A DNA stretch of 24,598 nucleotides from a virus (lineage: Duplodnaviria; Caudoviricetes): IMG/VR virus record IMGVR_UViG_3300006029_000086, positions 1-24,598 of that record; one strand, written 5' to 3'. Each line of letters begins with the position of its first letter. The first letter of the stretch is position 1. A program made the translations under genes and the position numbers. The notes below the pieces were generated by a model. The model did no database searches and was not told the origin of the DNA. It was given only the letters and a program-made list of their open reading frames with translations. Shown here piece by piece: positions 2,082 through 24,598 of the stretch.

Positions 2082-3573
2082 TGTAGCCTTCTCAGTCCTC
2101 AAAGAATCCAAGGAACGTAGCGATTATGACCTTAATCTGTTATTAAACGAAGATGAGCAAAGGGCAGCCGCTCGTTATTTTGCAGGTCTTTCGCCTGAAA
2201 AGCAACAACTGATACAAAAGATTGGCGAGTCGTTTCATAATATGCCACCAGAGGCAAAAGGTCAATTGACAGCCTCAGCACACCAGTTGATTCAACGTCA
2301 TCAAGGTCAACTTCCACAATTGCTCTCTCAGTCTCCGAATGAAAGTGGTCGAGTAAACAAAGCATTTTTCCTTGCGGCGATTGCAGTAGTCGTCGCTGTC
2401 GATGCATTTAACCAAAGTCAAGGGGCTGAGCGAAGTCTTGTTGGTAACGTGTTTACTGATGTAGGTAATAGTGTTTCATCTATAGGGGGCGGCGACCCTA
2501 ACTTCTTCGGAAGTAGTAATTACGGAGACGTTTTTGAATATAACAACGAAACCGCCCTGATAAATCCAATCACTGGACAGAAGCACATGGTTGAAGAAAA
2601 TCCAAGCGTGTGGAACAGAACTTGGAAGGGTGCACTCAGCACAGTAGGTTCAGTAGTTGGACCTGTTGCGGCTGGCAAAGCGGTAAAAGAAGGCGCAAAG
2701 GCTGGTGTAAAGCAAGCGACCAGTCGCTTTGCAACCGGCGCTGGAATGGCACAAAGAGGCACTGGAAAAGGTATTAGTCGTTTAGGAAGGAGAGGAACCG
2801 AGAAAGCAGGTCAAAGAGCATTTGATGCTGCCCCGTCTGTAGAAATGCAACAATACGCAAAAGAAGGTGCATTTGGTAGACTTGATAGATTTGGTCGAAA
2901 GGTACAAGCATCAGGTCAACGTAAAATCGATAACGCTTTAGCCGCACGTCAAGCAAGTAATACTTCGTTCATGAATGCAGCCAAAAATGCTCCTTTATCG
3001 AGTTACCCTTATCGAACTTTACAGGGCTTTGGAAGAACCCCTGCTGGTCAACAGGTGGCGCCATACCTTGCAGGTGTAGCAGGTTTGGGTGCAGCCGCAC
3101 TGTTGAACAACTCAGGTAGTGGTATGGGCGGAGGCTCAGGTATGGGCGGCGGCTCAGGTATGGGCGGCCAGCAACACCAACAAGGTCAGTTCAATCTCGC
3201 AGGTCAACAGTCGGGCGGCGTCCAAAACCTTCAAAACGTAGGAGTCGGTCAGACGGGACGAGAACAGATTTGGCAACAAGGCGGTTCAGGTACATTTGAC
3301 CAAAAACAAAAAGGTGAGATAATGACATTTACAAACAAAGAAGGCAACGAAATGCTATACAAAACTCTGAACGAGTTAGACAAAATGCACTGCGGCACAG
3401 AACAAAAAGCCGAATGCCCAAAGTGCGGCAAGAACTGCAAGTGCGATGAAGAAAAGAAAGCCGACGATGGCGACAAGAAAAAGAAACCTGCACACGGTAT
3501 GGTTATTGTCATCGGTTCTAAGAACGCTGGACCCGGTCCTTCGACGGACGGAAAGCGAGATTCCAAGGATTGA
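2065..3573 (+). CDS. Gly/Ala/Gln-rich protein with hydrophobic segments; candidate internal virion/ejection protein
   Basis: TTG at 2065 follows GGGGGTGA. N-terminal tag PTDVAFSVLK; hydrophobic stretches FFLAAIAVVVAV and LAGVAGLGAAALL; Cys cluster CPKCGKNCKC near the C-terminus. Confidence 0.75.
   Translation: MYTPTDVAFSVLKESKERSDYDLNLLLNEDEQRAAARYFAGLSPEKQQLIQKIGESFHNMPPEAKGQLTASAHQLIQRHQGQLPQLLSQSPNESGRVNKAFFLAAIAVVVAVDAFNQSQGAERSLVGNVFTDVGNSVSSIGGGDPNFFGSSNYGDVFEYNNETALINPITGQKHMVEENPSVWNRTWKGALSTVGSVVGPVAAGKAVKEGAKAGVKQATSRFATGAGMAQRGTGKGISRLGRRGTEKAGQRAFDAAPSVEMQQYAKEGAFGRLDRFGRKVQASGQRKIDNALAARQASNTSFMNAAKNAPLSSYPYRTLQGFGRTPAGQQVAPYLAGVAGLGAAALLNNSGSGMGGGSGMGGGSGMGGQQHQQGQFNLAGQQSGGVQNLQNVGVGQTGREQIWQQGGSGTFDQKQKGEIMTFTNKEGNEMLYKTLNELDKMHCGTEQKAECPKCGKNCKCDEEKKADDGDKKKKPAHGMVIVIGSKNAGPGPSTDGKRDSKD
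3121..3168 (+). repeat. 18-bp tandem repeat x2.7 encoding GMGGGS
   Basis: ggtatgggcggaggctca / ggtatgggcggcggctca / ggtatgggcggc. Confidence 0.9.
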
Positions 3574-3651: not shown

Positions 3652-4212
3652 ATGAGCAGCGCTAACCACACAACAGACCAAAGCGAAATTAGATTACTCG
3701 GACTTATCTTAATGCAGTCCGCTACAGTAGGACTGGCAGTCGGTTTATTCGACGCCGAGATGTGGATTGACCTTGAAACATCGGCACTTAATGGATTCAC
3801 ATATGCTATGGGCGCTTTCTTTGTACAAGGTATCGCTTATTACATCTTCAAAATGTTCTTCCAACACGGGATGGATGAAAAGGCACGTACTGCAACAATG
3901 GAACGTGAACGACGTATGCGATACCGTGGTATGGAAGAGACATTTGAGCGACGTCGTCAAGACATGGAATTACGTATGCAAGAAGCACAATTAGAAAATG
4001 AACTTCGTTGGATGGAAAAGAACCCCGGCAAGATGCCCCCTATGTATCAGGGTCAGATGTTCGACGATTCAACATCCGATTTCAATCCTGAACCAAAACA
4101 CGAGGCTGATGTAGATGAGCCACTTGGACTGGGCGTTTCGTTCGGCGATAAAAAACAGGCTAAGCCAAAGCGTGAACGCAACCCCGACGGCACATTCAAG
4201 AACAAAGATTGA
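3652..4212 (+). CDS. Membrane protein with 2 predicted TM helices and a cytoplasmic coiled coil
   Basis: ATG at 3652 after GAGGGA. Hydrophobic LLGLILMQSATVGLAVGLF and FTYAMGAFFVQGIAYYIF, then a charged helix ERERRMR...ELRMQEAQLENELRW. Confidence 0.8.
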   Translation: MSSANHTTDQSEIRLLGLILMQSATVGLAVGLFDAEMWIDLETSALNGFTYAMGAFFVQGIAYYIFKMFFQHGMDEKARTATMERERRMRYRGMEETFERRRQDMELRMQEAQLENELRWMEKNPGKMPPMYQGQMFDDSTSDFNPEPKHEADVDEPLGLGVSFGDKKQAKPKRERNPDGTFKNKD

Positions 4213-4223
4213 GGTGAACCCTT

Positions 4224-4472
4224 ATGGGTCGTATATTCAAGACACCAACCGATGATAGTACGGAAGCAACACTACGTGCAATGCACATCGCTAATACTGT
4301 CGACACTGCATACGAACGTGCATGGGGCTGGGTCAAAACCATTTTAGTTTCTACAATTTCAGTTTTGGTCGTTAGTTCAATTGAATTTCACAGCGACTGG
4401 AGTTTGTGGGAATCGACTGCTGATTGGTTTGGTACAAAGATGTCAAATTGGTTAGGGAGTTGGTTTGACTGA
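4224..4472 (+). CDS. Small single-TM membrane protein with Trp-rich amphipathic tail
   Basis: GAGGTGA RBS; ILVSTISVLVVSSI; tail WSLWESTADWFGTKMSNWLGSWFD. Confidence 0.8.
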   Translation: MGRIFKTPTDDSTEATLRAMHIANTVDTAYERAWGWVKTILVSTISVLVVSSIEFHSDWSLWESTADWFGTKMSNWLGSWFD

Positions 4473-4492
4473 GTGCAGCAGCAGGCTCTGCA

Positions 4493-5185
4493 ATGGTCGG
4501 TGGGCTTGTATTTGCTCGTGAACTGTGGCATTATTGGGTTCCACGACGAGTAGGTATCTATGGTCCGACGATGGTCGGTAAGACAACACTCGACAGATAC
4601 CTTACAACACCGGGTGAAATGGAGAATATACCGATTGAAGAGCGTACATCGCATACAAAGATACTCGGCAAATACCTTCTTCCACGTGCTACTCGTAAGC
4701 GAGTGCGCTGGAAAGGTGAGCGGAGAGTTGTACACTCGGCAGATATGGGCGGGGAAGAGCGATTCTGGAATTTATGGGCTGATGATATGGTCAATCGTAA
4801 TGTTGAGGTTGTTGTTTTTATGTTTGACCACAGAGTTCTCTTGGGCGGCGAACCAGCGCTACAAGCAGTTGGTGGATTCAAATATCTGTGTGACGCTATC
4901 ATTCATCGTCAATACAGGTATAGAAATTTACGTTCTCGCTTTAGAGGCAAGAAGTATTGCCCAAAGACAATACTGCTCGTAGCAAATAAGGCTGACCAAT
5001 GGTGGGATGACCAAGCAAATACGCTTTGGCAGCAACAGCGATTAGGAGAACACAAAATATTCGACCCGTTTCGTGAGGACCTTGTACGCTTACAAAAAGC
5101 AGGTGTACCTTCTTCACGTTCAATGATGGCAACACGCATTGGTTGGAACGTCGAAAATACCATGGTTGACCTACTTTCATCTTAG
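4493..5185 (+). CDS. Small P-loop GTPase of the Ras superfamily (Arf/Rab/Roc-like); start may be CTG at 4469
   Basis: G1 GPTMVGKTT, G3 DMGGEERF(WNLW), hydrophobic strand VVVFMFD, G4 ILLVANKAD, G5-like MATR; hydrophobic/amphipathic N-terminus. Confidence 0.88.
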   Translation: MVGGLVFARELWHYWVPRRVGIYGPTMVGKTTLDRYLTTPGEMENIPIEERTSHTKILGKYLLPRATRKRVRWKGERRVVHSADMGGEERFWNLWADDMVNRNVEVVVFMFDHRVLLGGEPALQAVGGFKYLCDAIIHRQYRYRNLRSRFRGKKYCPKTILLVANKADQWWDDQANTLWQQQRLGEHKIFDPFREDLVRLQKAGVPSSRSMMATRIGWNVENTMVDLLSS

Positions 5186-6216: not shown

Positions 6217-6843
6217 ATGGGATTATTCGGCGGAGGACAAGAACAAGCAAATGGCGGACTAAACTTAGGCGTACCGCAACAAAATGGGTACACGCAGTCA
6301 CCATCACCATTCGGTCAGAACCAAGGATGGACAGGAAATTCAGCAGCAGGTGCATTTATGCAAGGTGCTGGCGTCAATCAACAGTACATGCAACAGCCAA
6401 TGGCGCCTCCTTCCGAGGCTGAGATACTCTTAGCCATGCTCAAGAGCCAATCACCAGTCGATAGGTTCGTCGTTAGCGAGAAAATGCCCATGCTTATTCA
6501 AATGTTAAACGACATTGTCAGTTTTTCAGTGCTCGATATACTGCGTAATGCCACATTTAAGATGAATGAGGATGACGGAACTCTCAAATTGGACCCACAA
6601 TCACTTCCATCAAACCTACAAACTATGAGTGGAGAGAACATTACCTCCCAATTCAATGCTCTGGTCGGTAAAAGTCAGCAAAACATCGACCAAGCACAGA
6701 TGGAACAGCAACAAATACTTGCAATTTCCCAACAATCAATGATGGGAAGCGCACTACACGCAGCAATGGCTGACGAAGGCTTTATGCAAAAGGTCGGTGG
6801 AGGCATCGGCTCGTTCACACGCAACATGATTGGAGGAAGATGA
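6217..6843 (+). CDS. Hypothetical Gln-rich helical protein with amphipathic termini
   Basis: AGGTGA RBS; starts MGLFGG; ends GFMQKVGGGIGSFTRNMIGGR. Confidence 0.8.
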   Translation: MGLFGGGQEQANGGLNLGVPQQNGYTQSPSPFGQNQGWTGNSAAGAFMQGAGVNQQYMQQPMAPPSEAEILLAMLKSQSPVDRFVVSEKMPMLIQMLNDIVSFSVLDILRNATFKMNEDDGTLKLDPQSLPSNLQTMSGENITSQFNALVGKSQQNIDQAQMEQQQILAISQQSMMGSALHAAMADEGFMQKVGGGIGSFTRNMIGGR

Positions 6844-6844
6844 T

Positions 6845-7093
6845 ATGGATAGACAGCGAATGCCCTTTTCACAAGGGATTGCAATGACAACAAGCGACAT
6901 TTTCGCCCCTAAAAAGTCCGTAATCGTCGATATGGTGATGGTTCAAATACTCACAGTTATCGTAACCATCACATTAGTGCTTGTTTTGAAGAACGAATCT
7001 CTTGGAAGTGACACAATTGCGTGGATGATGGGCTCTTTGATGGTGGGTATACTACTTGCAAGTGCCATTTATTCACGTATTTCGTCGATATGA
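6845..7093 (+). CDS. Small 2-TM membrane protein (holin-like size and topology)
   Basis: ATG at 6845 just after the previous stop, with GGAGG upstream; TMs MVMVQILTVIVTITLVLVL and IAWMMGSLMVGILLASAIY. Confidence 0.75.
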   Translation: MDRQRMPFSQGIAMTTSDIFAPKKSVIVDMVMVQILTVIVTITLVLVLKNESLGSDTIAWMMGSLMVGILLASAIYSRISSI

Positions 7094-7347
7094 CGACCCC
7101 ATTTGCCAATCGGACACTCGGATGAGGTCAGATTTGCTTTAATTTTCATCTGACAACCGCATTTTTTGCATCTTGAACCCGTCCAATGAGGGCATTTTTG
7201 GCACATTTTAAGCCGTTTTTCCTTGATTTCAGGGGGTACATTGCGCCTCAAAACGACGTCTCGTGCTGCTTTTGCCAAGGAAACAGCCGTATCTTTGTTC
7301 AAAGGCACGCCTAAGACACGTACACCTGCTGGTTTGATACGACCCAT
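7069..7347 (-). CDS. Small Cys-rich protein (DUF6171-like)
   Basis: RLKMCQKCP...CKKCGCQMKIK...CPIGKW pattern; no competing + strand ORF; TATA-like box upstream on the - strand. Confidence 0.75.
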   Translation of the reverse strand: MGRIKPAGVRVLGVPLNKDTAVSLAKAARDVVLRRNVPPEIKEKRLKMCQKCPHWTGSRCKKCGCQMKIKANLTSSECPIGKWGRHIDEIRE

Positions 7348-7408: not shown

Positions 7409-8107
7409 ATGGGAGGTCGTCAGACAAAAAGGTCATGCCCTGTATGTCAGGACGAGGACCGTGATGAACTGGAAGAGCAAATTGCTTCTGGTCTTATCGA
7501 TATGAGGACACTTGACCGTGATAAGGGGTGGAGAGCCAACACCGCAGAGCGCCATATGCGTAACCATGCAGGCGAAAACGTCACTGGTTCAAACTATAAA
7601 TGCCCTATTTGCACTGATGACAGCCGTGGGCTGTACGAAGTAGCCTACTTTGATGAAGGAATGACAACAGAAGAGATAGCAAACGAGGTCGGATGCTCAG
7701 AAGATGCAGTCTATAGACACATGAAAGAGCACTTTCAGCCCCTTGTACGTCGTGCTTCGACCGCAATTGTCACGATTAAGGCTGGTGAAGAAATCGGAGT
7801 GATACGAAACAACACCGAAAAACTCAATGAGAAACTTACTCGATACATGGATGAGGTCAGTATACATGATGACAACGCAGTTGGTGACATGGTACGCCTC
7901 AACAAAGAAATTCGTGAGTCAATCAAGGACTTGATGGCCTTTCAAGCACAATGGGCACATCCTGAGGAAAAGACAGTCAATAATACTATCAATATACTCA
8001 AAGTTGAAATGGCAAAAGAAAGTCCAGAAGCATGGAAGCGAGTGCGAGAGGCACTCCTACGTGGTGACACGGAAGTAATTGACGTAGCAGAAGAGGATGT
8101 GAACTGA
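7409..8107 (+). CDS. Zn-finger/HTH DNA-binding protein with C-terminal coiled coil; putative terminase small subunit
   Basis: Two repeats of CPxC...(HTH-like helices)...RHMxxH; TTEEIANEVGCSEDAVYRH; helical hairpin then TVNNTINIL strand; first gene of the operon that contains TerL. Confidence 0.55.
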   Translation: MGGRQTKRSCPVCQDEDRDELEEQIASGLIDMRTLDRDKGWRANTAERHMRNHAGENVTGSNYKCPICTDDSRGLYEVAYFDEGMTTEEIANEVGCSEDAVYRHMKEHFQPLVRRASTAIVTIKAGEEIGVIRNNTEKLNEKLTRYMDEVSIHDDNAVGDMVRLNKEIRESIKDLMAFQAQWAHPEEKTVNNTINILKVEMAKESPEAWKRVREALLRGDTEVIDVAEEDVN

Positions 8108-11357: not shown

Positions 11358-12307
11358 TGGGCAAGGTCTTAATCAAAGCGTATGAGTATCAAATTGGACC
11401 TGACGGTAAGCCTCAGATGTATTACAATTTGAGCGGAAGAGGAAGAAGTGGAGGAGGCGGCGACGGACCACGTGGTCGTACATTCAGAAGTAAGTTGGGC
11501 GGTAGATTAGGTGGAGCAGTAGGTGTAATGGCTGCACTCACAGGCGAATCACGAAGTGCTGGCGGATTAGCAGGGCAGATGTTTGCTGGCTATCAACAAG
11601 GCTCTGCTGTGGGTCAAGGACTCGCTAACATGGCAACTTCACGCCGACGTCAAGCACGTGCTGATATTCGTGAAGGTGAAAAGCAAGCCCAAGCAAAGGG
11701 TGATGCACAAGCACGTTTAGCAGGCGAAAGAGAAATGAAACGCCGAAGAGGACTTGACTTTGACCCTAATATGTCGTTACAAGAAATGCGTGACATGGGT
11801 CCTACGCCAAGAAGAAGAAGCATACTACCCGGCATCGGTGGCAAAAACATGACAAGGTTTGGATATGAGTTAGCAGACCACCAATCGGAACAACAAGCAA
11901 TCGCTGCCGAACAAGCAAAGCGAGAAGGAAGAGAACGTGCTGCTATGGAACGTGCAAATCTTGGGGATGACATTAGTTTGTTGCAACGTGTTAGAGGGAT
12001 GAATCCAGAAGCGCTGGCAGCGGTTCAACAAGCACAACCAGTAGTACCGACGACACAGATGCCTGCTGCGCCAATCCAACCTCTTTCTAATGAAACAAGT
12101 AGACAGATTACAGAAGGCGAACAAATACCCGCTCCTAATGCACCGTATGCTGACCATGATGCTGACCTCACTACAGGTCAGGAGAATTTGAATCAGTTTA
12201 GAGAAGAAAATCCTGACGTACAAGGTCAGCAAGGTCAAGAACCCGAAGTAAATTTGAATGAACAGAATTTAAGTAGACTGGCGCAGATGATGGGGAGTGA
12301 GCAATGA
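11357..12307 (+). CDS. Glycine-zipper-like hypothetical protein; candidate ejection/pilot protein
   Basis: TGATG overlap with GGAGG RBS; LGGRLGGAVGVMAALTG...GGLAGQMFAGYQQGSAVGQGLA followed by coiled coil. Confidence 0.7.
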   Translation: MGKVLIKAYEYQIGPDGKPQMYYNLSGRGRSGGGGDGPRGRTFRSKLGGRLGGAVGVMAALTGESRSAGGLAGQMFAGYQQGSAVGQGLANMATSRRRQARADIREGEKQAQAKGDAQARLAGEREMKRRRGLDFDPNMSLQEMRDMGPTPRRRSILPGIGGKNMTRFGYELADHQSEQQAIAAEQAKREGRERAAMERANLGDDISLLQRVRGMNPEALAAVQQAQPVVPTTQMPAAPIQPLSNETSRQITEGEQIPAPNAPYADHDADLTTGQENLNQFREENPDVQGQQGQEPEVNLNEQNLSRLAQMMGSEQ

Positions 12308-13803
12308 GCGATGCAGAGGGCGTCAAGGCACTCGTTGATGAAATCGATATTGAAATGTCGAAGAAATCATTCAAGTTCTTTTTCACTGAAATACTTGGCT
12401 TCGATTACGCTGACCATCACGAAGCATGGGACAACGGTCTGAACGGTCATCGTTACTACTGTGTCAAAGCGAGTCGTGACCACGGCAAATCAGTTTTCTT
12501 TATGTCCTATGCCCTTTGGATTGCAGCATTCAACCCGAACACTCACGTCATGGTGTTCAGTCACTCTCTTGAACAAACACTTGAGCATATGCGATTCATT
12601 CGCAGCAACATCGATATGGCTGACATCCTCAAGCCACTCAAGCCTTCTGGAAAACCTTGGGCTAAATCCTACTTTGAATTCACAAACGGCAGCCGTATCA
12701 TGGCAAAGTCCGTTGGTGGTGCTACTCGTGGTTTCCACCCTGACGTGGTTGTGTGCGATGATATTCTGTGGGGTACAACCGTATCCGAACTTCAACGTGC
12801 AGCCGACTGGTTCTATACCGTTCTGCTCCCTGTACTGCACCACACAGGTCGAATGATGATGGTCGGTACACCGTTTTCGTACAATGACCTGTACGCTGAA
12901 CTTGAACAAAAAGAAACCTTCCAAGTCGAAACCTATCCCGCTATCTTAGAAAACGGCGAACCGTTATGGCCGGGACGTTGGCCGCTTGATGCACTCCGAA
13001 TGCGTGAGAAGTCAATGCCTGCAATCAAATTCGCTCGTGAATATCTGTGTGAACCGATTCACGATAACTCAAGTATGTTCCCTCATAGTCTGTTGGAGAA
13101 AGCCCGTGACGAAAATCTCGTGCTTCTTGACCACGCTGAACAAGAATTCGACGAAGAAGGCAACGCAGCAGGCGTATTCGGTCAACACTTTGTTGGCTGG
13201 GACCCTGCGATTGCAAGCGATTCAAACGCTGACTACACAGCCATGACCGTATTGCGTGTGCTTCCCGGCTCTGAGGAGAAACAGTTAGTTCACGTCATCA
13301 ACCAAAAGGGATTGAGCGGTGCTGCACAAAAACGTAACATCCTCCTCCTCAACAATCGATTCCAGCCTGACTTGATTGAACTTGAAGGCAACAACTTCCA
13401 ACGAATGTTCGCTGCTGAACTTCAAGAAATGCGAGATGACATCCCTATCAAAACCTTTATGACCACGAGACAGCGCAAGGAAAGTATGTTCATGTCGCTG
13501 CTTATGGCTTTTGAGCAAGGTAAACTGAAAACACCTTGGGGCGACGAACGCAGTAAAGAATTCACAAGAGAACTTGAGAAGCAACTCAGTCGATTCGGTA
13601 TGAAGAAAGACGGTAAACTTGAATCCGTTGGCTCTCACGATGACTTAGCGATGTCAATTGCTTTGGCGAACTGGGCGACCAAAGAATTCAGAGGAAGCGT
13701 TATGCTACTCGATGACGACCTTCCGGGCTTTGACAAGTGGTTCCTTGATTCACCGAGTCAGGGCGCTTCTCGTATGACAGGAGATGATTGGTTTGTTGCT
13801 TGA
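12304..13803 (+). CDS. terL: Terminase large subunit
   Basis: Walker A ASRDHGKS, Walker B VVVCDD, coupling motif MVGTP, RNase H-like nuclease motifs VGWDPA, DYTA and HDDLAMSIALA. Confidence 0.95.
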   Translation: MSDAEGVKALVDEIDIEMSKKSFKFFFTEILGFDYADHHEAWDNGLNGHRYYCVKASRDHGKSVFFMSYALWIAAFNPNTHVMVFSHSLEQTLEHMRFIRSNIDMADILKPLKPSGKPWAKSYFEFTNGSRIMAKSVGGATRGFHPDVVVCDDILWGTTVSELQRAADWFYTVLLPVLHHTGRMMMVGTPFSYNDLYAELEQKETFQVETYPAILENGEPLWPGRWPLDALRMREKSMPAIKFAREYLCEPIHDNSSMFPHSLLEKARDENLVLLDHAEQEFDEEGNAAGVFGQHFVGWDPAIASDSNADYTAMTVLRVLPGSEEKQLVHVINQKGLSGAAQKRNILLLNNRFQPDLIELEGNNFQRMFAAELQEMRDDIPIKTFMTTRQRKESMFMSLLMAFEQGKLKTPWGDERSKEFTRELEKQLSRFGMKKDGKLESVGSHDDLAMSIALANWATKEFRGSVMLLDDDLPGFDKWFLDSPSQGASRMTGDDWFVA

Positions 13804-14548
13804 CCCGTTTGAACAGGCTTGGCTTTTGCTTAAAGCACAAAGCAGAGAGCAGCAATTGAGAGATGATGTTGCTCGTCACAAAGCCAGTGTAGAAAGAATA
13901 ACTGGTCACCTTACAAGAGGACACCCGAATTACATATCTATGGAATCAATTCGTCAATCCTTCGGTTCAACACCCGAAGCATTGGAAAGGGACAAAAATG
14001 CTTATGAAAAAAGCAAAGCCAAGTTAGAAGAATACATGGGCGGACGTGGTGCGAAGGAAGCAGAGCGCAAGAAAGAGCGAACACGTCAGCAAGGAATAAA
14101 GAATGTTGAGTTTTCCGATGCAGCAAGAGAACGCAGCAAAGCACGCCAGCAATCAGCGCAAGCAAAAGATGACGCTCGTGTTCAGGCGGAAAAGGATGCC
14201 GAAGAAGCAAAGCGTCGAGCCGAAGAAGAAAAGCATGAAGCAAACCGTATCAAAGTCAAAAGAAGAACAGAGTATCAAGAGCGTAAACAGAAGCGTGAAG
14301 GTAAATCTACATCAGAAGAAACCGCTATAGACGACCCTGATGCCCCAATTGAAAGCGTGCTTGATGAGGTTAATCGACGTGAGCGAGCAAAGTTAGGAGA
14401 TGCAAATGAACCTGTCAAACCTCAGCCTGAACGCAGACTTGTTGGCATCAAGCCCAAGCCTCAACCCAAAGAAGAAGAAGAAGATTGGGAAAAGGACTTA
14501 AGAGAACAATCGAGTACGTTCTCATACGACCCATACGGAGATAACTAA
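13784..14548 (+). CDS. Highly charged coiled-coil protein with N-terminal tag (start may be TTG at 13793 or 13796)
   Basis: LDPFEQAWLLLKA followed by E/K/R/A-rich helices. Confidence 0.75.
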   Translation: MIGLLLDPFEQAWLLLKAQSREQQLRDDVARHKASVERITGHLTRGHPNYISMESIRQSFGSTPEALERDKNAYEKSKAKLEEYMGGRGAKEAERKKERTRQQGIKNVEFSDAARERSKARQQSAQAKDDARVQAEKDAEEAKRRAEEEKHEANRIKVKRRTEYQERKQKREGKSTSEETAIDDPDAPIESVLDEVNRRERAKLGDANEPVKPQPERRLVGIKPKPQPKEEEEDWEKDLREQSSTFSYDPYGDN

Positions 14549-14549
14549 T

Positions 14550-15860
14550 ATGTGGCCTTCACTAATCGTAGGAGAATCTGACATTCATTTGGATATGGGT
14601 GAAGAGCAATCGACAATGATTGCTTCTTCTCTACTGGCTCATCCTTCTTTGAGGGATGACATGATGAAGGCTGTCAAGATTGCTAAAGAAGCCGTCCCAC
14701 AGCAACCTATTCTACAAATCGAAACACATTCGTTTCCAGAAAATGGCGACTCGTGGTTCGATGCTTATCTCGGCAAGAGTGCTGACGAAGTTGTCAAAGA
14801 CCTCAAGCGTGCTCGCCGTAAGATGAAGGACATGAAATTCGACATTGACAGTGCTATCAAAAGCGTACGTGCTCTCAAAGCACAAGAAGTCGAACAGACG
14901 TTGGCGACTATACCTTGGGCATCAGAATACGGCGGTACGATTCGTAATCTTGGTCTGAGCGACAGAAACCTCAAATCACTTAGGACATTCTCTAAGTCAA
15001 GAGAATCCACATTGCTTCGTGCTTGTCATATGTGGGAAGCAGCAGATGAGGCACTCAAGATGCTCGATGACTTTGAAGATGTATGGGGTGACGAAGAACA
15101 ATCTGCTTGGGTTAATGCTATGCAACAAAGACAAGACGCTCGTAAAATGTGGCGCAGTGGGTTGCATCAAGTTGATACTCTGAGCAAAGAGCAAAAGAAT
15201 TGGCTTGAAATGGCTCGTCAAGAACTTCAAAGCAAAGGACACATGGGGGCTCGTGATATTACAGCCAACCTTATTGAAAAGGGCGTTAATCGAATCTCAG
15301 CGACTCGTATGAGTAAACTCCTATCCATGTTCGGTGAAGAAATGGATATTGTCAAAGCACCTCGACGAGGCGAATACATTCTACTTTCCTGTGATGGTCT
15401 GGTTATCAAAGACCCTTGGGCGTATGCTGCTGGATTTATGGATGCTGACGGCTCTATCTTTATCACAAAGCGAGGAGAAGTCCGAGCATCAGCAGTAGCG
15501 ACTGGAGACAGAGGTAAAATTCATTGCGAGAGATTGCAGAAAACACTGGGTTGTGGCACACTTTCACTCAATGAAAAGATGTCAAAGAACAGTAAGCGAA
15601 CAACTCACAGACTCAATTTCCACTCACGAGATGACTTGAAGAAAGTTCTTAACGGAGTGCTTCCGCACTTGCAGTTGAAGTCCACTCAAGCCAAAGCCGC
15701 TTTGCGGTTTCTTGAAGAGGATGACAACGTGAAGAAGGAGCAATACAGGATGTTAGTCATGTTTGAAAATTGGAAAGATGACGTCGATGCAGTTCAGAAG
15801 AAACTGGATGCATGGGGCGTCGATGCGGATACTATCCGTTCATGGGGAAGTGATTTGTGA
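14550..15860 (+). CDS. Protein with C-terminal LAGLIDADG endonuclease-like domain and long helical N-terminal region
   Basis: WAYAAGFMDADGSIFI motif at about 15417-15465, followed by LQKTLGCG and LPHLQLKSTQA, typical of single-motif LAGLIDADG domains. Confidence 0.8.
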   Translation: MWPSLIVGESDIHLDMGEEQSTMIASSLLAHPSLRDDMMKAVKIAKEAVPQQPILQIETHSFPENGDSWFDAYLGKSADEVVKDLKRARRKMKDMKFDIDSAIKSVRALKAQEVEQTLATIPWASEYGGTIRNLGLSDRNLKSLRTFSKSRESTLLRACHMWEAADEALKMLDDFEDVWGDEEQSAWVNAMQQRQDARKMWRSGLHQVDTLSKEQKNWLEMARQELQSKGHMGARDITANLIEKGVNRISATRMSKLLSMFGEEMDIVKAPRRGEYILLSCDGLVIKDPWAYAAGFMDADGSIFITKRGEVRASAVATGDRGKIHCERLQKTLGCGTLSLNEKMSKNSKRTTHRLNFHSRDDLKKVLNGVLPHLQLKSTQAKAALRFLEEDDNVKKEQYRMLVMFENWKDDVDAVQKKLDAWGVDADTIRSWGSDL

Positions 15861-17596
15861 TGGCAGACGATAAAGTCAAGGGTGTATTAGGTCGTCTTGC
15901 TGACAGGTTCAGAAGAAGACGTACACCAGAACCTCAGATGCCTCTCTATACAACAGGTATCCAAGAACCAGTTGTTGTTCAAGGTATTACTATTCCAGCA
16001 CTGTATTCAGTCGCATCAGAGAATTTGATTCTACGTACAGTTTTGTCAACACTCAAGCAAGAAATATTCCGTCGTGGTTATTATTGGGACAAGGCATTTC
16101 ACCAAAAGTGTATACAATGCGAAAAAGAGTACGAACACGACGTTGACGCCTGTGTTGATTGTGGAGGAGAAGTTCGTCAGCCTGAACCAAGTGAAAAGGT
16201 ATATGCTCAGTGGCTTGTAGAACAGCGTAACTCGATGGAACAAACTTTTATGGATGTTTTGAGAGAGATTGAACAAGACCTCAACATTATGGACGATGCA
16301 TTCCTTATTCTTGTCAAAGAATACTATATCGACCCTGAAACAAACGAAGTTGCATTCTATCGTATCAAAGAAATTCTTCGTGGTGACCCTATCTTCATGC
16401 GTATTGTTGCAGACAAGCGGGGTGTACGTGGAGGTCGATACAAAGTATGCCCCCTCCATCGTACAGAAGTACGTGGTTACAGCGAAGGTCAGAAGCAGTG
16501 TGATACCTGCGGACACGATTTAGAAGACGTACACCACGTGAATACTGGCGGTGCTGGTAAAACGCAATACTATCTCAAGGGAGAAGTCATCCACGTCAGT
16601 AAATACAATCCATCGAAACTCTATGGCAAGTCACCTGTGTCAACACTATGGCGCCAAGCAATGACACTTACAGCAATGGACAATTACATGTACACTGCAT
16701 ACAGTAAGCGTCGTGTACCCCGTGGTTTGATTTCTATCACAACAGACAACCTTGAATCGATGAAGTCGTTTTGGAAGGGTGTTGACGAGAAACTTGAACG
16801 TGACCCTCACTACATCCCTAAGATTGGTATCGAAAGTCAAAGCGGACGTGGAGGCGTCAATTGGATTAAATTCATGGATACGATGGAAGAGATGCAATAC
16901 ATTGCTGTACGTGATGAAATGCGAACACGCATTGCTGCATTCTACGGTGTATCAAATGTGTTTATGATGGATACAGGTAAGTCAGGTGGACTGAACAACG
17001 AAGGTCTGCAAATTCTTGTCACCAATCGTGCAGTTGAATTTGGACACAAGGTGTATACCGACCATCTCTTTCCTCGACTCATGGAAGAAATGGATGTTCA
17101 TGACTGGAAACTCACCCTTTATCCAAACGAGGAAGAAGACGAAGTCACTCGACTACGACGTGACGAAATGGAAGTCAATATCGCACAACGGATGATGCAA
17201 CTTGGATTCAAGCCTGAACTCATCGAGGAAGGCGGACGTGATTTGAGATTTATCTACAAGCCTATGGAACCGGGTCAACCGGGTCAACCGGGTCAAGGTG
17301 GAGGTATGCCCGGAGGACCAATGCCAATGGCACAGCCCGGTGGCTTGCCAAGTCGTAACATGAATCCACAGATGGCAGGTGCGTTAGCAGGTCAAGCAAG
17401 CGCAGGCTTGAGAGCAGCACAAGGTCCAGCATCACAGCCCGGTGGAGAGGGGATGGGTATGCGTACTCCACGAGGACCTGCAAGTCCTCAAAACAGAACA
17501 TCGATGGGTTCAGGAGCACCGTTTTCAAGTGTCCAGCAACGAGGACCGCAAGGCAGTCCTCTCAGTCAAGCGATGAATAATATACGAAGATTCTGA
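15860..17596 (+). CDS. Portal protein (HK97-like) with Zn-ribbon insertions and a Pro/Gly/Gln/Met-rich tail
   Basis: DLNIMDDAFLILVK, EVIHVSKYNPSKLYGKSPV, VPRGLI, EMQY...RIAAFYGVS motifs; position downstream of terL. Confidence 0.9.
   Translation: MADDKVKGVLGRLADRFRRRRTPEPQMPLYTTGIQEPVVVQGITIPALYSVASENLILRTVLSTLKQEIFRRGYYWDKAFHQKCIQCEKEYEHDVDACVDCGGEVRQPEPSEKVYAQWLVEQRNSMEQTFMDVLREIEQDLNIMDDAFLILVKEYYIDPETNEVAFYRIKEILRGDPIFMRIVADKRGVRGGRYKVCPLHRTEVRGYSEGQKQCDTCGHDLEDVHHVNTGGAGKTQYYLKGEVIHVSKYNPSKLYGKSPVSTLWRQAMTLTAMDNYMYTAYSKRRVPRGLISITTDNLESMKSFWKGVDEKLERDPHYIPKIGIESQSGRGGVNWIKFMDTMEEMQYIAVRDEMRTRIAAFYGVSNVFMMDTGKSGGLNNEGLQILVTNRAVEFGHKVYTDHLFPRLMEEMDVHDWKLTLYPNEEEDEVTRLRRDEMEVNIAQRMMQLGFKPELIEEGGRDLRFIYKPMEPGQPGQPGQGGGMPGGPMPMAQPGGLPSRNMNPQMAGALAGQASAGLRAAQGPASQPGGEGMGMRTPRGPASPQNRTSMGSGAPFSSVQQRGPQGSPLSQAMNNIRRF
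17270..17296 (+). repeat. 9-bp tandem repeat x3 encoding PGQ
   Basis: ccgggtcaa x3 at the start of the portal low-complexity tail. Confidence 0.9.
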
Positions 17597-17632
17597 CAAA
17601 ACATTCAATACAATGGAGGTTATGGGATGCGT

Positions 17633-17974
17633 ATGGACCTAGCGAAGATGGACCCAATGGCTCGTAAAATGCGCTCACATGTTGATGCGTTTTTCAAAGC
17701 AATCGAAAACAACGACAGCGTATCTGCAAGTTCTCACATAGGTGAGGTTAGCAAGTACGCAGAATACCTTTCAGAAGACGTATCAAAAGCAATCATGAAG
17801 TCTGATACACCTTCAACTAACGGCGTCAACGACATCTATGCAGGCGGCGTACCAGTTCGTAAGTTCAATAGCATTCAAACTGTTCACGAAGCAACAACAC
17901 AAGTCTTGCCGGGTACTATCCGAACAAGCCGACGTGGGCCTATCATGCAGCGTCGAAACAACAGGAATCTCTGA
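17633..17974 (+). CDS. Hypothetical head-module protein (start 17627 or 17633)
   Basis: ORF after the portal; helical N-half, linker AIMKSD, basic C-terminus. Confidence 0.75.
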   Translation: MDLAKMDPMARKMRSHVDAFFKAIENNDSVSASSHIGEVSKYAEYLSEDVSKAIMKSDTPSTNGVNDIYAGGVPVRKFNSIQTVHEATTQVLPGTIRTSRRGPIMQRRNNRNL

Positions 17975-17983
17975 GGTGAAATA

Positions 17984-18364
17984 ATGAGCGAAGAAGTCGT
18001 AGAAGAGGGAGCGGCTGAGAAACTCATGGGTGCTCTTATCAACAAGATGGAGAGCATGGACCACAGTTTGTCACTTCTCAAAGCAGAAAACGTAGCACTC
18101 AAGAACATTGTAGCAGACCCTGCTGCACTTTTGAAGCGTGCTGGATTTATTCGACACGGGTCGAACAGTGCACCGATGGATATTATGCCTGACCTGTTCC
18201 GTGGAGACTCACAATATGATATTCTAAAGAACGAATCCGACAGTGGAGTACCGTTGCCTGAAACCAACGCAGACTTCCACGCTATGGATTGGTCGGATAT
18301 TCATCGCCTTGCAGAAGAATCGAAAGGTAACGGAAACATAGGCAACAACATGGGAATGGAGTGA
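17984..18364 (+). CDS. Hypothetical coiled-coil protein (scaffold-like)
   Basis: GAGGTGA RBS; heptads LINKMESMDHSLSLLKAENVALK; acidic C-terminus. Confidence 0.75.
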   Translation: MSEEVVEEGAAEKLMGALINKMESMDHSLSLLKAENVALKNIVADPAALLKRAGFIRHGSNSAPMDIMPDLFRGDSQYDILKNESDSGVPLPETNADFHAMDWSDIHRLAEESKGNGNIGNNMGME

Positions 18365-18368
18365 TAAC

Positions 18369-18749
18369 ATGCGACCAAGATACGAACCTAGAAGTTCAAA
18401 GATTGACCAACTAATGAAAGCAGCGAAAGAAGTCGAGAACCGACTTATCACTAAAGAGCAAGGTGTTACCTTCCAGCAAAAAGAAGGAACAGCATTGGGC
18501 GATGTCCAGTTCCATTCACAAGTCGGTGGAGAGACTGGTGTTCAAAACCAATACTACTCGACCAACCAACGACTCATTGATGTCGAAGATGTCAAGAACA
18601 AGGGCGCAATTTCAGAGAAGAGCGACATACTCGATAAGAATCCGTACTATCCTACAGCCCTTTCAACACTTGCAGGTCACTTTGTAGATGGTGGCGGTGA
18701 AGCGCAGTCTCTCAAAAAGGCTTTAGAAACTCGACTCAACCGCCAATGA
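18369..18749 (+). CDS. Hypothetical protein
   Basis: GGAGTGA RBS; tightly packed in the operon. Confidence 0.75.
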   Translation: MRPRYEPRSSKIDQLMKAAKEVENRLITKEQGVTFQQKEGTALGDVQFHSQVGGETGVQNQYYSTNQRLIDVEDVKNKGAISEKSDILDKNPYYPTALSTLAGHFVDGGGEAQSLKKALETRLNRQ

Positions 18750-18763
18750 ATGGCGGTGATTGA

Positions 18764-21700
18764 GTGACTATTCCGAATCCCAGTGATGGTAACCAAGTCG
18801 TTGACCCCGCACGACAACAGGGCGGTCAATACAGCGATGAACAAGAATCACTTGGAATCGTTGACCCGATGACCGAGCGCTATGCCGCTGGTTTAGAAGA
18901 AGCACCCAAAAACATTTCAGAATCATTTCCGGGTCAGTACCCTGAGGTTGGTCGTATAAGACAACCTCAAAACGTCGACCACATAGGTCAGGATTGGTTG
19001 CACCAACAGATACTGCCTGCTACAAGAGCACACGAAGGAACAGCCAGTGAACATTTTGGCGACATGTCGATGTATCACCCTGACGTTGCGCCGCTTTGGG
19101 ATGAGCGTACAGTCAACAATGGTGTCGATATGCCTGCATGGTCAGAGCGTTTAGATTCATTTGCACGAAACGGTGTATCGAGAGTACACGATGCAAAAGA
19201 AAGAGCACATCGAAAGCACTATCCTGATTCTGCTCTATACACATATGGTATGTATGGACCTCACAACACACACGTTACACAGCATGAATTGTATGAAAGA
19301 AGTTACAACAATTGGCTACAGAGTGAAGAGGGGCAGGGTTTTTCTAAAGATTTAGATGAAGGTGGTATACATGGTGCTGAACAACAAAGGTATCTTCGAC
19401 ATTATCATTTAGGCTCAACACAAGAATCGTGGATGGACGATGACACTCACGAAGAAACAGGTCGACGAAAAGGCTTGGGCGAGATGGATTACTATCTCGG
19501 CCTTGAGTGGCTCACACCCGGCGAACGTGCTAAGGTGTACAGACACATCAAGGAACACGGCTTCCACGACAAAAACAATTACACCATCAGCGACATTCAC
19601 GTAGGCGACAAGCCTCTTTCGATGGGTCGACTCGTTTCTAATTATCACCAGCGATACGCACCAGTATTCAATCATCACACTCGTGACCCTGACGCTACAG
19701 GTCAAGCATTCGCAGTTGGTATGATACCCGGTGGCTCAACTCAAAAGATGAATCCGAGCACACTTTATGAAGATTTAGAAAACAGTGAACTTGGGAAGAA
19801 ACTTCGTAGATATTATGAGGACTTCGACGACGAGGTCGAGTACCTTCCGAGATTTGCAGAAAATGGTTTCAAGCCGGGTACCGAACCTACGATGGATTTG
19901 CGTGGCATACATGCTCTCGCAGGTGTGAAGGCAGGTGCCGACGGTAATCTCACATTCCACAAAAAAGGCGAATCCCCGCATTATGGTGAAGGCTGGACAG
20001 GTGACCACGATTGGACAATTCAAGAAGTCGAAGATTTCTTAGAGCCGCATTTGCATATGCAAAAAGCACAAGGTGCAGGTCGAATCGCTCGTAATCACAT
20101 ACAGATGTACACCTCACCTCACCTCTTGACAGAAGGCGAAGGTGCACATCCTGAGTCGTACACATTAGGCGAATCAGAATCACTCGCACATCACTGGTCA
20201 GTTCCCTTTGAAGGCAGAGGTGGTTTGGGTAAGACACACACAACGAAGTTGGATATGATGCACCAGTCTCTTTTACTGGAAGGAGAATATGACGGACTGC
20301 TCGGTCGTAAGCAGGCGAGACAAGACGTGTTCAGTGGACGACCGCTTCCATCGGGGGAGGCTTTAGAGACGAAGGGTGGTGAAGTGCTAAACCTGCACAG
20401 TAAGGTCAGCGGTTTGCTCGCTCCGTTCTATCCGCCTATATCTGAACTTGGAGAAGCACGTCGTGCAATCAAACGAAGAAACCAAGTCGAAATGACGTCT
20501 GTGTCGGAGATTGACCCTACTGCTGGTTTTATCGCATCGCTTTCTCCACACAATACGTTCATATCGGGTACAGGTGCTTTAGCCAATGCAAAAGTCAATC
20601 AAGGTTTGCAGGGCACTACTCATTCGCCTGAACATCACAACAAACTATACAGGCAATCGTTAGCGGCAGGTCGCACAGAAGGTACAAGTAAGTTGAAAGA
20701 TTTACGTAACGAAGTAGGTGGATTTGGGGTATCACAAAGATTTACACACGGTATAGGTCACGCATTTGGACAGGCCGTAGAAGATGGTAAATTAAAGCGG
20801 GACGGTGATGTTTCTCACCAAGCCATAAAACTGGTCGGTATGATTGGCGGATTGAACAACCCTGCTATGCCTGCTCAATACGATGTTAGTGCTCCTCATC
20901 AGTTACCGTATGAGGCAAAACTGCCGATTAGCAGAGAAGATTACGACCTGCGTCAGCAAACACATACCGACCGCTACGAACAAAATAAAAACAAGTTGGC
21001 TGAACTTGATGAAATACTTAGAAATATGGAAACCAACATGAGTCCAGAAGAAAGACTTACCATGGAACGCTCTCTTCAAAGTTTAGAAACACGTCCACTT
21101 CGTGAGAATGAAGTTAGGTACAAATCATTACGTTCCCAAAGGGAAGCATTGGATGAAAAAACTCATGAATATGATGAAGCCGAAGAGGAATTGAATAAAT
21201 TATTTGAAGAACGAGAATTGCTTCCAGAAGGCAGTGAAGGACGTGACCACCTTGACCATCTAATTGATGAACAAAGTGAAGTGTTAAGAGAGATAGGTCG
21301 AAAACACTACGGTTCTAATTCAAGAGGTCAAAAGAAGGTTGACGTCGACGAAACACATCACAAGCAAGTCTCAGGCCATCACGAAGCAATCGCACAGATG
21401 GCTGAGAAGATTGGTGAAGAGATTGAAAAGCAAATGCCTGAATTGTATTCAATGGTGCATCCTGACACTATGGCTGCTTGGAAAATGTTTGCAGCCAATA
21501 AGTATCTTGCTGAACAGGACTCAGAGCATCACAATTTGACCGCTCCAGTAGCAGGTCACGAAGTAGTTGACTCGGAACTAAAAGGTGCGACGGATAACAG
21601 CCATGATGCTATATCTTACAATGTACATGAAAACGGCCATGAAATCAATTCGGATATGAGCAAAGATGATGTTGCTAAGTTGTTGTTTGGTGATGACCCT

Positions 21701-24163: not shown

Positions 24164-24171
24164 TTATATAG
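24163..24171 (+). promoter_or_regulatory. TATA box of the protease (capsid) operon
   Basis: ATTATATAG lying about 24-30 nt upstream of the ATGs at 24194/24200. Confidence 0.5.
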
Positions 24172-24193
24172 AATGACGGATGTAAGGGATAGC

Positions 24194-24598
24194 ATGGTCA
24201 TGGCATCGCCACTACAAACCTCTCGTTTTGAGAGCAGTGGAACCCTATCGCTTTTGAAGAGCGACCGTGACCTCGTTATTGCAGGTTACGCAAGCGTTGA
24301 GATGGTCGACAAGCAAGGTGACCTTATCACAACAAACGCACTTAAGGGTGCATTTGACGGTTTTATGAAAGCGGAAGGATTCCGCAACGTACAACTCGCA
24401 CACTCCAACATTCAAGTTGGAAGTGTTATTCCAGAGTACACTGACAGCAGTGGACGACTTTGGAAGTCTGGTGTCGATGACGCTGGACTCTTTGTTGTCA
24501 TCCAAGTACGTGATGACATCGAAAAGGCTCGTGAAGTAGCCAATGAAATTCGCAAAGGCGCCCTTAGGGGTTTCAGTATCGGTGGACAAGCATTCAAG
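24194..24598 (+). CDS. Prohead (capsid maturation) protease, HK97 family, 3'-truncated
   Basis: My translation: MVMASP...SLLKSDRDLVIAGYASVEMVDKQGDLI...VQLAHSNIQVG...GLFV...IRKGALRGFSIGGQAFK, with catalytic His (LAH) and Ser (GFSIG). Not listed in the ORF track. Confidence 0.92.
   Translation, partial: MVMASPLQTSRFESSGTLSLLKSDRDLVIAGYASVEMVDKQGDLITTNALKGAFDGFMKAEGFRNVQLAHSNIQVGSVIPEYTDSSGRLWKSGVDDAGLFVVIQVRDDIEKAREVANEIRKGALRGFSIGGQAFK

What the first reader, a model, noticed from the sequence alone, without database searches (positions are those of the whole stretch)
4469..5185. Virus-encoded Arf/Rab-like GTPase with Q-to-E switch II, polybasic insert and membrane-type N-terminus
Seen: G1, G3 and G4 are intact. 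G3 reads DMGGEERFWNLW, a hybrid of Arf DVGGQxxxRxLW and Rab DTAGQERF, with Glu in place of the catalytic Gln. A basic/aromatic insert HRQYRYRNLRSRFRGKKY precedes G4, and the N-terminus is hydrophobic/amphipathic (VGGLVFARELWHYW). Small GTPases are unusual in head-tail viruses and bear on the archaeal origin of eukaryotic trafficking GTPases. Inference: a membrane-associated switch with slow or GAP-dependent hydrolysis.
Basis: partly seen in the sequence, partly recalled or inferred. Interest (0 to 1): 0.75.

Follow-up and report, generated by a model that had tools for sequence, protein, structure and literature searches.

The report
Viral Arf-like GTPase membrane cassette

Summary
The gene is real (4469-5185, likely CTG start). 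It encodes a predicted Ras-superfamily G-domain with G1, G3, G4, a likely G5 and a near-invariant switch I Arg-Thr (186 of 189 viral homologues). Fold and profile searches lean Arf/Sar/SRbeta, not Rab. The 'Q-to-E switch II' is not fixed: Q 113, E 53, D 15, H 6, A 2 of 189. The basic/aromatic insert is conserved in character. The N-terminal helix is too weak for a transmembrane anchor. The gene sits in a five- to six-gene block with small predicted membrane proteins and two orphans; its core recurs in four distant magrovirus-like lineages beside different neighbours. In my trees its nearest cellular relatives are uncharacterised Chloroflexota, unassigned and Asgard 'DxPGD' GTPases. Sisterhood with the best Asgard Arf-like pair (p 0.0007) or with Asgard Rab/Ras-like proteins (p 0.02) is rejected, so the bearing on eukaryote origins is weak; no eukaryotic sequences were in the tree. 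Best guess: a membrane-bound GTP switch for a late membrane step, probably release; untested. My literature searches found no description. This scan noted the same cassette before on other genomes.

The parts
4469..5185 (+). Small GTPase-like gene, 238 aa, likely CTG start overlapping the upstream stop
4472..4537 (+). Predicted N-terminal helix (res. 2-23): small-apolar first half, amphipathic second half; not transmembrane-grade
4562..4588 (+). G1 / P-loop GPTMVGKTT (res. 32-40)
4643..4648 (+). Arg59-Thr60: likely G2 threonine preceded by a candidate intrinsic arginine
   Evidence: RT present in 186 of 189 viral homologues; role inferred from MglA Arg53-Thr54
4742..4777 (+). G3 / switch II DMGGEERFWNLW; Glu96 (4754-4756) is a variable position, Trp103 near-invariant
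4904..4957 (+). Basic/aromatic insert between alpha3 and beta5 (res. 146-163)
4985..4996 (+). G4 NKAD
5126..5146 (+). Likely G5 MATRIGW; SAK in lineage B homologues
   Evidence: lies in a low-confidence part of the model
3652..4212 (+). u2: predicted membrane protein (one clear hydrophobic segment, two in lineage D homologues) followed by a charged, likely coiled-coil tail
4224..4472 (+). u1: 82-aa protein with one predicted transmembrane segment
5234..6208 (+). d1: 324-aa orphan with conserved Cys/His motifs (CVVDG ... RGTYCPEH), likely metal-binding; candidate regulator or effector
6217..6843 (+). d2: 208-aa Gln/Met/Gly-rich orphan starting MGLFG
6845..7093 (+). d3: 82-aa protein with two predicted transmembrane segments; detected in lineages A and D only
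7409..8107 (+). Context: HTH/zinc protein, weakly terminase-small-subunit-like
   Evidence: phrog_2538, E 0.0096
12304..24598 (+). Context: terminase large subunit, LAGLIDADG-like nuclease, portal, giant protein with a weak ATP-ligase match, prohead protease (magrovirus-like structural module)

Best explanation
The gene encodes a divergent predicted small GTPase that sits in a conserved five- to six-gene viral block and likely acts as a GTP switch on the inner face of the host membrane, probably timing a late membrane-remodelling step such as virion release. Shown: the motifs, the predicted fold, the block and its conservation. [quoted passage not shown]
For: Fold: top VIA rows Arf6 Z 14.4 (rmsd 2.7, 161 aligned), SRbeta 14.0, Sar1 13.6, Loki Rag 13.5, all tied; the top Foldseek rows are Ras-superfamily proteins. 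G1, G3 and G4 residues are invariant or near-invariant across 37 sequences down to 29% identity. Same order and strand of eight genes in 80 of 80 close loci; gaps of 11, -4, 48, 8 and 1 nt suggest one transcript. Core recurs in four lineages: d1 profile probabilities A-B 93, A-C 100, A-D 100; d2 A-B 90, A-C 39, A-D 99; off-slot pairs at most 14. Three of five partners have predicted transmembrane segments. Flanks are morphogenesis-related in three lineages (terminase-small-like gene in A and D, major capsid gene PF17236 in B). RT in 186 of 189. Precedent for an archaeal small GTPase driving membrane vesiculation: ArvA (PMC10927574).
Against: No biochemical or infection data, and the presumed hosts are uncultured (PMC5434244 abstract). 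No partner matches a holin or any family. In lineage C the block lies beside a chaperonin gene, not capsid genes. u2 and u1 of lineage B match the other lineages only weakly (best probabilities 21 and 6). The protein is basic overall (+7 to +16), which fits nucleic acid as well as lipid. Switch I is poorly modelled (res. 38-50 pLDDT <50), so the place of Arg59 is not shown. The N-terminus is not transmembrane-grade (1 of 174 at KD>=1.6). Related cellular GTPases lack the block, so the membrane partners are virus-specific and give no functional shortcut.
Confidence: 0.4

Rival explanations
1. The block builds a membrane-tethered site for capsid assembly, genome packaging or replication, with the GTPase as its switch, and has no role in release.
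For: Adjacent to the terminase-small-like gene (A, D), the major capsid gene (B) or a chaperonin (C), all assembly functions. d2 is low-complexity and scaffold-like.
Against: Tailed-virus head assembly generally needs no GTPase (recalled). The block moves between neighbourhoods as a unit.
Confidence: 0.2
2. The block is a host-takeover, counter-defence or superinfection-exclusion device at the membrane, akin in logic to bacterial GTPase-centred conflict systems.
For: DO-GTPase systems combine a Glu-bearing TRAFAC GTPase, a downstream partner and membrane proteins (PMC7159879 passages). The nearest cellular relatives include a Chloroflexota family with DVGGE in 117 of 120 and a fixed downstream orphan in 13 of 15 loci.
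Against: No PADLOC hit for the viral block. DO-GTPase2 Pfam matches only 4 of 121 members at E 0.14. Strong conservation (median identities 44-73% in 80 loci) is unlike fast-evolving conflict genes (inference).
Confidence: 0.2
3. The basic surfaces bind DNA, RNA or ribosomes, and the GTPase couples nucleic-acid handling (packaging, translation of membrane proteins) to the membrane, rather as SRbeta does.
For: Two basic stretches, res. 59-86 (+6 to +11) and 146-166 (+6 to +11), in 121 of 121 close homologues. SRbeta ties for top fold score.
Against: The insert mixes basic with 3-6 aromatic residues, typical of membrane-interface loops (recalled). No transmembrane anchor as in SRbeta.
Confidence: 0.12
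4. It is a GTP-binding scaffold with little or no hydrolysis; relaxed selection on residue 96 reflects loss of catalysis.
For: Residue 96 takes five states with at least 16 changes.
Against: Gln remains the commonest state (113 of 189) and Arg-Thr in switch I is kept in 186 of 189.
Confidence: 0.08

Closest known systems
Arf-family small GTPases: Asgard GerdArfR1 (PDB 8OUN, 8OUM), Arl8, Arf6, Sar1, SRbeta
   Same: G-domain fold. Best single-domain PDB matches of the viral-only profile are 8OUN (E 4e-7), Arl8A (8e-5) and 8OUM (4e-4), ahead of Rab33B (1e-3). DxGG in 176 of 189 and Trp103 in 188 of 189. N-terminal helix without a myristoylation glycine, as the ArfR preprint says of ArfR1 and Arl8A.
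   Different: 16-19% identity in fold alignments; below the Pfam Arf cut-off; long interswitch, basic alpha3-beta5 insert, extra helices after G4; the switch II arginine of the Arf signature (recalled) is mostly Trp; switch I Arg-Thr; viral block.
Uncharacterised prokaryotic Arf-like GTPases found here: Chloroflexota family (P0237-P0356), unassigned P0206 group, P0201, P0207, Asgard DxPGD subfamily (L297-L314, L316)
   Same: One supported clade with the viral proteins (98/94; 96/84). Basic stretch before beta5 in the P0206 and Asgard groups; Glu, Asp or other residues at the 'catalytic Gln'.
   Different: No switch I Arg-Thr in those printed; no homologue of the viral partners beside the Chloroflexota genes; unrelated metabolic neighbours in the one Asgard locus read.
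ArvA-ArvB-ArvC (OapABC) vesiculation operon of Haloferax (PMC10927574)
   Same: Archaeal small GTPase in an operon with a zinc protein proposed as GAP; membrane remodelling.
   Different: No DUF2072/DUF2073 match in the block; ArvA is cellular; no ArvA sequence was in my trees.
MglA-MglB of Myxococcus (bioRxiv 10.1101/577387)
   Same: Arg directly before the switch I Thr, an intrinsic arginine finger in MglA.
   Different: No roadblock-domain partner detected; no MglA row among the 50 VIA rows shown.
DO-GTPase/GAP1 conflict systems (PMC7159879)
   Same: TRAFAC GTPase with Glu after DxxG, downstream partner, membrane components.
   Different: Glu not conserved here; single copy; no GAP1, GASH or FNIII match.
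Rab/Ras/Ran genes of giant eukaryotic viruses; Arf genes in Atabeyarchaeia mobile-like regions (PMC11529989)
   Same: Small GTPases carried by viruses or mobile DNA.
   Different: The giant-virus rows are at most 22% identical and belong to viruses of eukaryotes; the Asgard ones cluster with Arf and are not described in such a block in the passages read.

Membership tests
Ras-superfamily small GTPase | G1 GxxxxGK[ST] | tested here: met
Ras-superfamily small GTPase | G2 threonine in switch I | tested here: inconclusive
   Thr60 near-invariant but the loop is poorly modelled
Ras-superfamily small GTPase | G3 DxxG and G4 NKxD | tested here: met
   D92, G95, N173, K174 invariant in 37 of 37
Ras-superfamily small GTPase | Stand-alone G-domain fold | tested here: met
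   (predicted model)
Ras-superfamily small GTPase | GTP binding and hydrolysis | not testable with these tools
   needs biochemistry
Arf family | N-terminal helical extension (PMC6724607) | tested here: met
   helix 2-23 predicted; hydrophobic moment 0.38 over res. 14-24
Arf family | Switch II signature, recalled as wDvGGqxxxRxxW | tested here: inconclusive
   GG 176 of 189 and final W 188 of 189 kept; the leading W is absent and R is mostly W
Arf family | Pfam PF00025 curated cut-off (22.3 bits) | tested here: not met
   no hit for the window protein; best of 37 members E 0.00026, similar to Roc and MMR_HSR1
Arf family | Interswitch toggle coupled to the N-helix | not testable with these tools
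   needs GDP and GTP structures
Arf family | Nests with Arf proteins in phylogeny | tested here: inconclusive
   Arf-like side 100/100 against Asgard Rab/Ras-like; sisterhood with L329/L331 rejected, p 0.0007; no eukaryotic Arf, Sar1 or SRbeta in the tree
Rab family | C-terminal cysteine prenylation motif (recalled) | tested here: not met
   ends VDLLSS; no C-terminal Cys column
Rab family | Groups with Rab/Ras-like proteins | tested here: not met
   AU p 0.022 against Asgard Rab/Ras-like rows
SRbeta | N-terminal transmembrane anchor (recalled) | tested here: not met
   KD19 median 1.09; 1 of 174 reaches 1.6
MglA | Arg-Thr in switch I | tested here: met
   186 of 189; MglA Arg53-Thr54
MglA | Adjacent roadblock (MglB) gene | tested here: inconclusive
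   no such Pfam hit; only d1 was folded
ArvA | ArvB (DUF2073) and ArvC (DUF2072) in the operon | tested here: inconclusive
   no Pfam hit, but the partners match nothing at all
DO-GTPase system | Conserved Glu in Walker B | tested here: not met
   E in 53 of 189
DO-GTPase system | GAP1 partner | tested here: inconclusive
   no Pfam or PADLOC hit
Magroviruses | Structural module with terminase, portal, protease, inserted nuclease and ligase (PMC5434244) | tested here: met
   (ligase match weak, E 0.008; nuclease PHROG E 2e-11)
Magroviruses | About 100-kb genome with PolB, often a chaperonin | tested here: met
   four relatives of 96-110 kb: PolB 4 of 4, chaperonin 3 of 4; MCM 0 of 4 by Pfam
Magroviruses | Poseidoniales host | not tested
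   no spacer, provirus or capsid-gene phylogeny was run

The most novel reading that the evidence does not exclude
Tailed viruses of marine archaea carry a self-contained, GTPase-timed membrane-remodelling machine (Arf/Sar-like switch with its own intrinsic arginine, its own zinc-type regulator, a scaffold and small membrane proteins) that releases virions or reshapes the host membrane without holin-endolysin or ESCRT; the switch comes from an undescribed prokaryotic branch beside the Arf family.
Probability: 0.25. Interest if true: 0.85.

Novelty: new variant of a known kind. Interest (0 to 1): 0.58.

Why it matters
How tailed viruses leave or remodel cells of Marine Group II archaea is open, and this block is a conserved, testable candidate that standard annotation misses (no Pfam, PHROG or PADLOC hit for the window's GTPase). 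It extends small regulatory GTPases to head-tail viruses. It also points to an undescribed group of prokaryotic Arf-like GTPases in Chloroflexota and Asgard archaea. The natural Q/E/D/H/A series with a fixed switch I arginine is a ready-made test of how small GTPases hydrolyse GTP without the classical glutamine. A practical warning: three GTDB 'cellular' copies, one in an Asgard MAG, lie on short contigs with the viral block and are likely mis-binned.

Tried and rejected
Single-sequence Pfam, PHROG and PDB searches gave nothing for the GTPase; the close-homologue profile gave only non-significant Rab33B rows. Repeated RecA rows at the top are summed P-loop matches and were disregarded. No tblastn match in 50,697 GenBank phage records for P0001 or P0219; the terminase found only distant bacterial phages there (best 28.6%), so that collection could not name the virus. 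The complex prediction of GTPase plus d1 gave no answer (score 0.00) and says nothing either way. d1 has no fold match (best Z 4.2; one unnamed viral model at E 7e-5; no Atlas hit); its model is middling (pLDDT 68, pTM 0.48). Three RNA-labelled runs gave only scattered short contigs and cannot show transcription. Promoter and terminator scans were at chance level and use bacterial consensus; no repeats of note. Pseudomonadota sample: 0 of 300 genomes beyond the centre genome with its likely mis-binned contigs, with only 9 candidates scored per genome. Viral scans with P0129 and P0201 found no loci. A recalled resemblance of the Chloroflexota partner to GAP1-N was not borne out by Pfam. MCM was not found by Pfam in 4 of 4 relatives. 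Viral plus Asgard DxPGD as one clade was neither preferred nor rejected (p 0.18). Rejected readings: fixed Q-to-E design, Rab membership, transmembrane N-terminus, cellular copies in Maricaulis, Parvibaculum and Asgard MAGs.

Full report
Observation. The ORF caller begins at ATG 4493. In related viral loci the gene starts eight codons earlier with ATG, with TTG in the five closest loci (L001-L004, L049) or GTG (L006). So the window's CTG at 4469, overlapping the upstream stop by 4 nt, is the likely start. Contigs from 4 of 4 DNA runs laid span the gene with no indel and no change at that codon. The window is a 24.6-kb virus record with one copy of the gene.

The virus. The window encodes terminase large subunit, a LAGLIDADG-like nuclease, portal, a 1799-aa protein with a weak ATP-ligase match and a prohead protease. 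Passages of Philosof et al. 2017 (PMC5434244) describe this layout, with a ligase and a nuclease inserted in the structural module, for magroviruses of groups A and B. Four relatives of 96-110 kb, one per lineage, carry PolB (4 of 4) and a chaperonin (3 of 4); Pfam found no MCM in any. The Marine Group II host is therefore inferred, not shown.

The protein. A search gave 449 proteins at E<=0.001 among 1199 candidates, of which 120 were listed. A profile search of 1.84 billion representatives gave 86. Alone the protein matches no Pfam family. The AlphaFold2 model (pLDDT 76.8, pTM 0.76; res. 38-50 and 223-230 under 50) has an N-terminal helix 2-23 and a G-domain with a long beta2-beta3 region and extra helices. 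Foldseek ranks Rab27B, Rab33, Rac, Ras and Rho first (E 3e-7 and up, 13-22% identity). The independent VIA search ranks Arf6 (Z 14.4, rmsd 2.7, 161 aligned), SRbeta (14.0), Sar1 (13.6) and a Loki Rag (13.5) as ties, with Rab28 at 12.6. So the two fold searches disagree on subfamily and agree on the superfamily. A profile of 37 viral-family sequences finds, apart from summed RecA P-loops, 8OUN (E 4e-7; GerdArfR1 by the N-terminal residues given in the ArfR preprint), Arl8A (8e-5), 8OUM (4e-4) and Rab33B (1e-3). Member-wise Pfam matches are all weak and split: Roc 16, Arf 13, MMR_HSR1 11, Ras 4 of 37.

The three features named in the finding. (1) Switch II. Among the query and its 120 closest homologues residue 96 is E 93, D 16, Q 11, N 1. 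Among 189 distinct sequences from four lineages it is Q 113, E 53, D 15, H 6, A 2. A FastTree tree built without those columns needs at least 16 changes, 8 for acidic versus not. Glu is thus a recurring variant at a relaxed position. By contrast Arg-Thr in switch I is present in 186 of 189 and Trp103 in 188 of 189. In MglA the Arg before the switch I Thr is an intrinsic arginine finger set in place by its GAP (bioRxiv 10.1101/577387, passages); the same role here is inference. [quoted passage not shown] (2) The insert. Res. 146-166 carry +6 to +11 and 3-6 aromatics in 121 of 121 close sequences; a second basic stretch (59-86) is equally charged, and the whole protein is +7 to +16. Median insert charge by lineage is +9, +3, +8, +9 with unrelated sequence. 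(3) The N-terminus. The first half is apolar with almost no moment, the second half amphipathic (0.38). Only 1 of 174 reaches transmembrane hydrophobicity. There is no Gly2 in the window protein.

The block. In 80 of 80 close viral loci eight genes (u2, u1, GTPase, d1, d2, d3 and the two next + strand genes) keep order and strand, while genes further upstream vary (6 to 67 of 80). u2, u1 and d3 have predicted transmembrane segments. Distant homologues led to three more lineages: B beside the major capsid gene (PF17236), C beside a chaperonin (PF00118), D beside the terminase-small-like gene as in A. All show two small hydrophobic genes, the GTPase and two soluble genes. Profile-profile probabilities by slot: d1 A-B 93, A-C 100, A-D 100; d2 A-B 90, A-C 39, A-D 99; u2 A-C 98, A-D 95, A-B 0.5 (B-C 21); u1 A-D 86, A-C 32, A-B 0.5; d3 A-D 97, not seen in B or C; off-slot pairs at most 14. 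Lineage C rests on four loci and two distinct sequences. d1 keeps a Cys pair region and an RGTYC-x-x-H motif in A, B and C but has no fold or family match.

Cellular relatives. The three GTDB hits at 61-62% identity (an Asgard, a Maricaulis and a Parvibaculum MAG) lie on 8-16 kb contigs with the viral block and are likely mis-binned. With the viral-only profile, 47 of 151 Asgard genomes matched at E<=0.001, the best true cellular rows (36-45 bits) mostly a subfamily with DxPGD and a basic stretch before beta5. Following P0206 led to a Chloroflexota-labelled family, DVGGE in 117 of 120. Profile scores rank P0201, P0207 and the P0206 group (median 56 bits) above the Asgard DxPGD set (38), Chloroflexota (27), Asgard Arf-like (12) and Asgard Rab/Ras-like (6); the first two sets were found by this family's profile, so the ranking is partly by construction. 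By hhalign the order differs: P0206 group 99.5, Asgard Arf-like 98.6, DxPGD 98.3, Rab/Ras-like 98.0, Chloroflexota 97.9. In a 66-row tree (18 of 37 viral rows, 6 of 19 DxPGD, 16 of 27 Arf-like, 12 of 29 Rab/Ras-like, 6 of 120 Chloroflexota) the viral rows form a clade (96/94) inside a clade with those relatives (98/94), on the Arf-like side of the split from Rab/Ras-like rows (100/100). A 38-row tree, with five long rows and others dropped, agrees (96/84; viral plus Chloroflexota, P0206 group and P0207 97/91). AU tests reject viral plus L329/L331 (p 0.0007) and viral plus Rab/Ras-like (p 0.022), and do not reject viral plus DxPGD (p 0.18). The groups were named after the first tree was seen, branches are long, and no eukaryotic, MglA, ArvA or Roc sequences were included. 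The Chloroflexota gene is followed by a conserved orphan in 13 of 15 loci, unrelated to the viral partners. The hosts or viruses behind P0201, P0206, P0207, P0129, P0162 and P0163 are unknown.

Mechanism. The likeliest reading is a GTP switch held at the inner membrane by its N-helix and basic loop, working with its own membrane proteins and two soluble partners in a late step, most probably release (0.4). Rivals are a membrane-tethered assembly site (0.2), host takeover or counter-defence (0.2), nucleic-acid binding (0.12) and a non-hydrolysing scaffold (0.08). Motifs, predicted fold, block and conservation are shown; every functional step is inferred.

Literature. 'magrovirus' with 'GTPase' gave 0 papers. 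'Poseidoniales, virus, GTPase' gave 3 papers on Asgard archaea, seen as listings only. 'small GTPase, archaeal virus, Caudoviricetes' gave 3; I read passages of two: one speculates that enveloped viruses might use host OapA/ArvA (PMC10791045), one reports Arf genes in an Atabeyarchaeia mobile-like region (PMC11529989). A phage and small-GTPase search listed 20 of 231 papers, none on a tailed-virus GTPase by title. 'GTP' is absent from the main text of PMC5434244 and PMC11706807 and from the held supplements of those and of PMC10160649. The held supplement of PMC11706807 is only 8,917 characters, so its annotation tables may not have been seen; bioRxiv supplements and subscription journals were not searched. 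Of PMC10927574, PMC7159879, PMC6724607, PMC10160649 and the two preprints I saw passages only. Some database records already carry automatic names such as 'GTPase SAR1 family protein', and ESM Atlas clusters are auto-named as Ras or GTPase domain proteins.

Earlier notes. This scan recorded the same cassette on other genomes at least eight times. Their 'four lineages' remark prompted my lineage test; I checked it here and do not count the notes as evidence.

Verdict. Observation confirmed, interpretation partly supported. A new, divergent family on the Arf-like side of the Ras superfamily, in a viral membrane-gene block that I found in no paper. It works, by inference, like an Arf/Sar-type membrane switch, but is not shown to be a member of Arf proper and is not a Rab. 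New variant of a known kind; interest 0.58.

Noticed in passing
window 4469-4471: Likely CTG start codon overlapping the upstream stop; close relatives use TTG, more distant ones ATG or GTG, at the same place.
   Followed up: yes
L133, L134, L135, L292, L296, L327: Magrovirus-like GTPase genes inside Asgard, Maricaulis and Parvibaculum MAGs; for L133-L135 the whole block was confirmed on short contigs. Likely mis-binned viral contigs that could be mistaken for cellular genes.
   Followed up: partly
L297:1489-2139 and L298-L314, L316: Asgard small-GTPase subfamily with DxPGD in G3 and a basic stretch before beta5; two subgroups; function unknown.
   Followed up: partly
L391:5001-6344, L401, L424 and related loci: Chloroflexota two-gene unit: Arf-like GTPase with DVGGE followed by a conserved orphan of about 213 aa (13 of 15 loci) with no Pfam match.
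   Followed up: partly
window 18764-24163: 1799-aa protein with a weak ATP-dependent ligase match near its C-terminus, between portal and protease genes.
   Followed up: no
window 60-1865: Run of short, very basic genes (DUF6321, DUF7140-like, DUF5872) that are highly conserved in sequence but shuffled in order among relatives.
   Followed up: no
window 987-24163: Many structural-module proteins share a short motif of the type 'AW.LLK' or 'AF.VLK', or 'LLKS/LIKS' (for example ORFs at 799, 2056, 8107, 13784); possibly a common processing or packaging signal.
   Followed up: no
window 7069-7347 (-): Lone minus-strand gene with a DUF6171 Cys cluster, converging on the end of the block; found in 69 of 80 close loci, not detected in lineages B-D.
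   Followed up: partly
window 14550-15860: 436-aa protein with a C-terminal LAGLIDADG-like domain between terminase and portal.
   Followed up: no
window 3121-3170: Short 18-nt tandem repeat coding a Gly/Met/Ser-rich stretch in the 505-aa ORF at 2056.
   Followed up: no
L221, L230 (about 1.4 kb upstream of the GTPase, minus strand): Lineage D loci carry a minus-strand gene of about 170 aa with a GISH motif upstream of the block.
   Followed up: no
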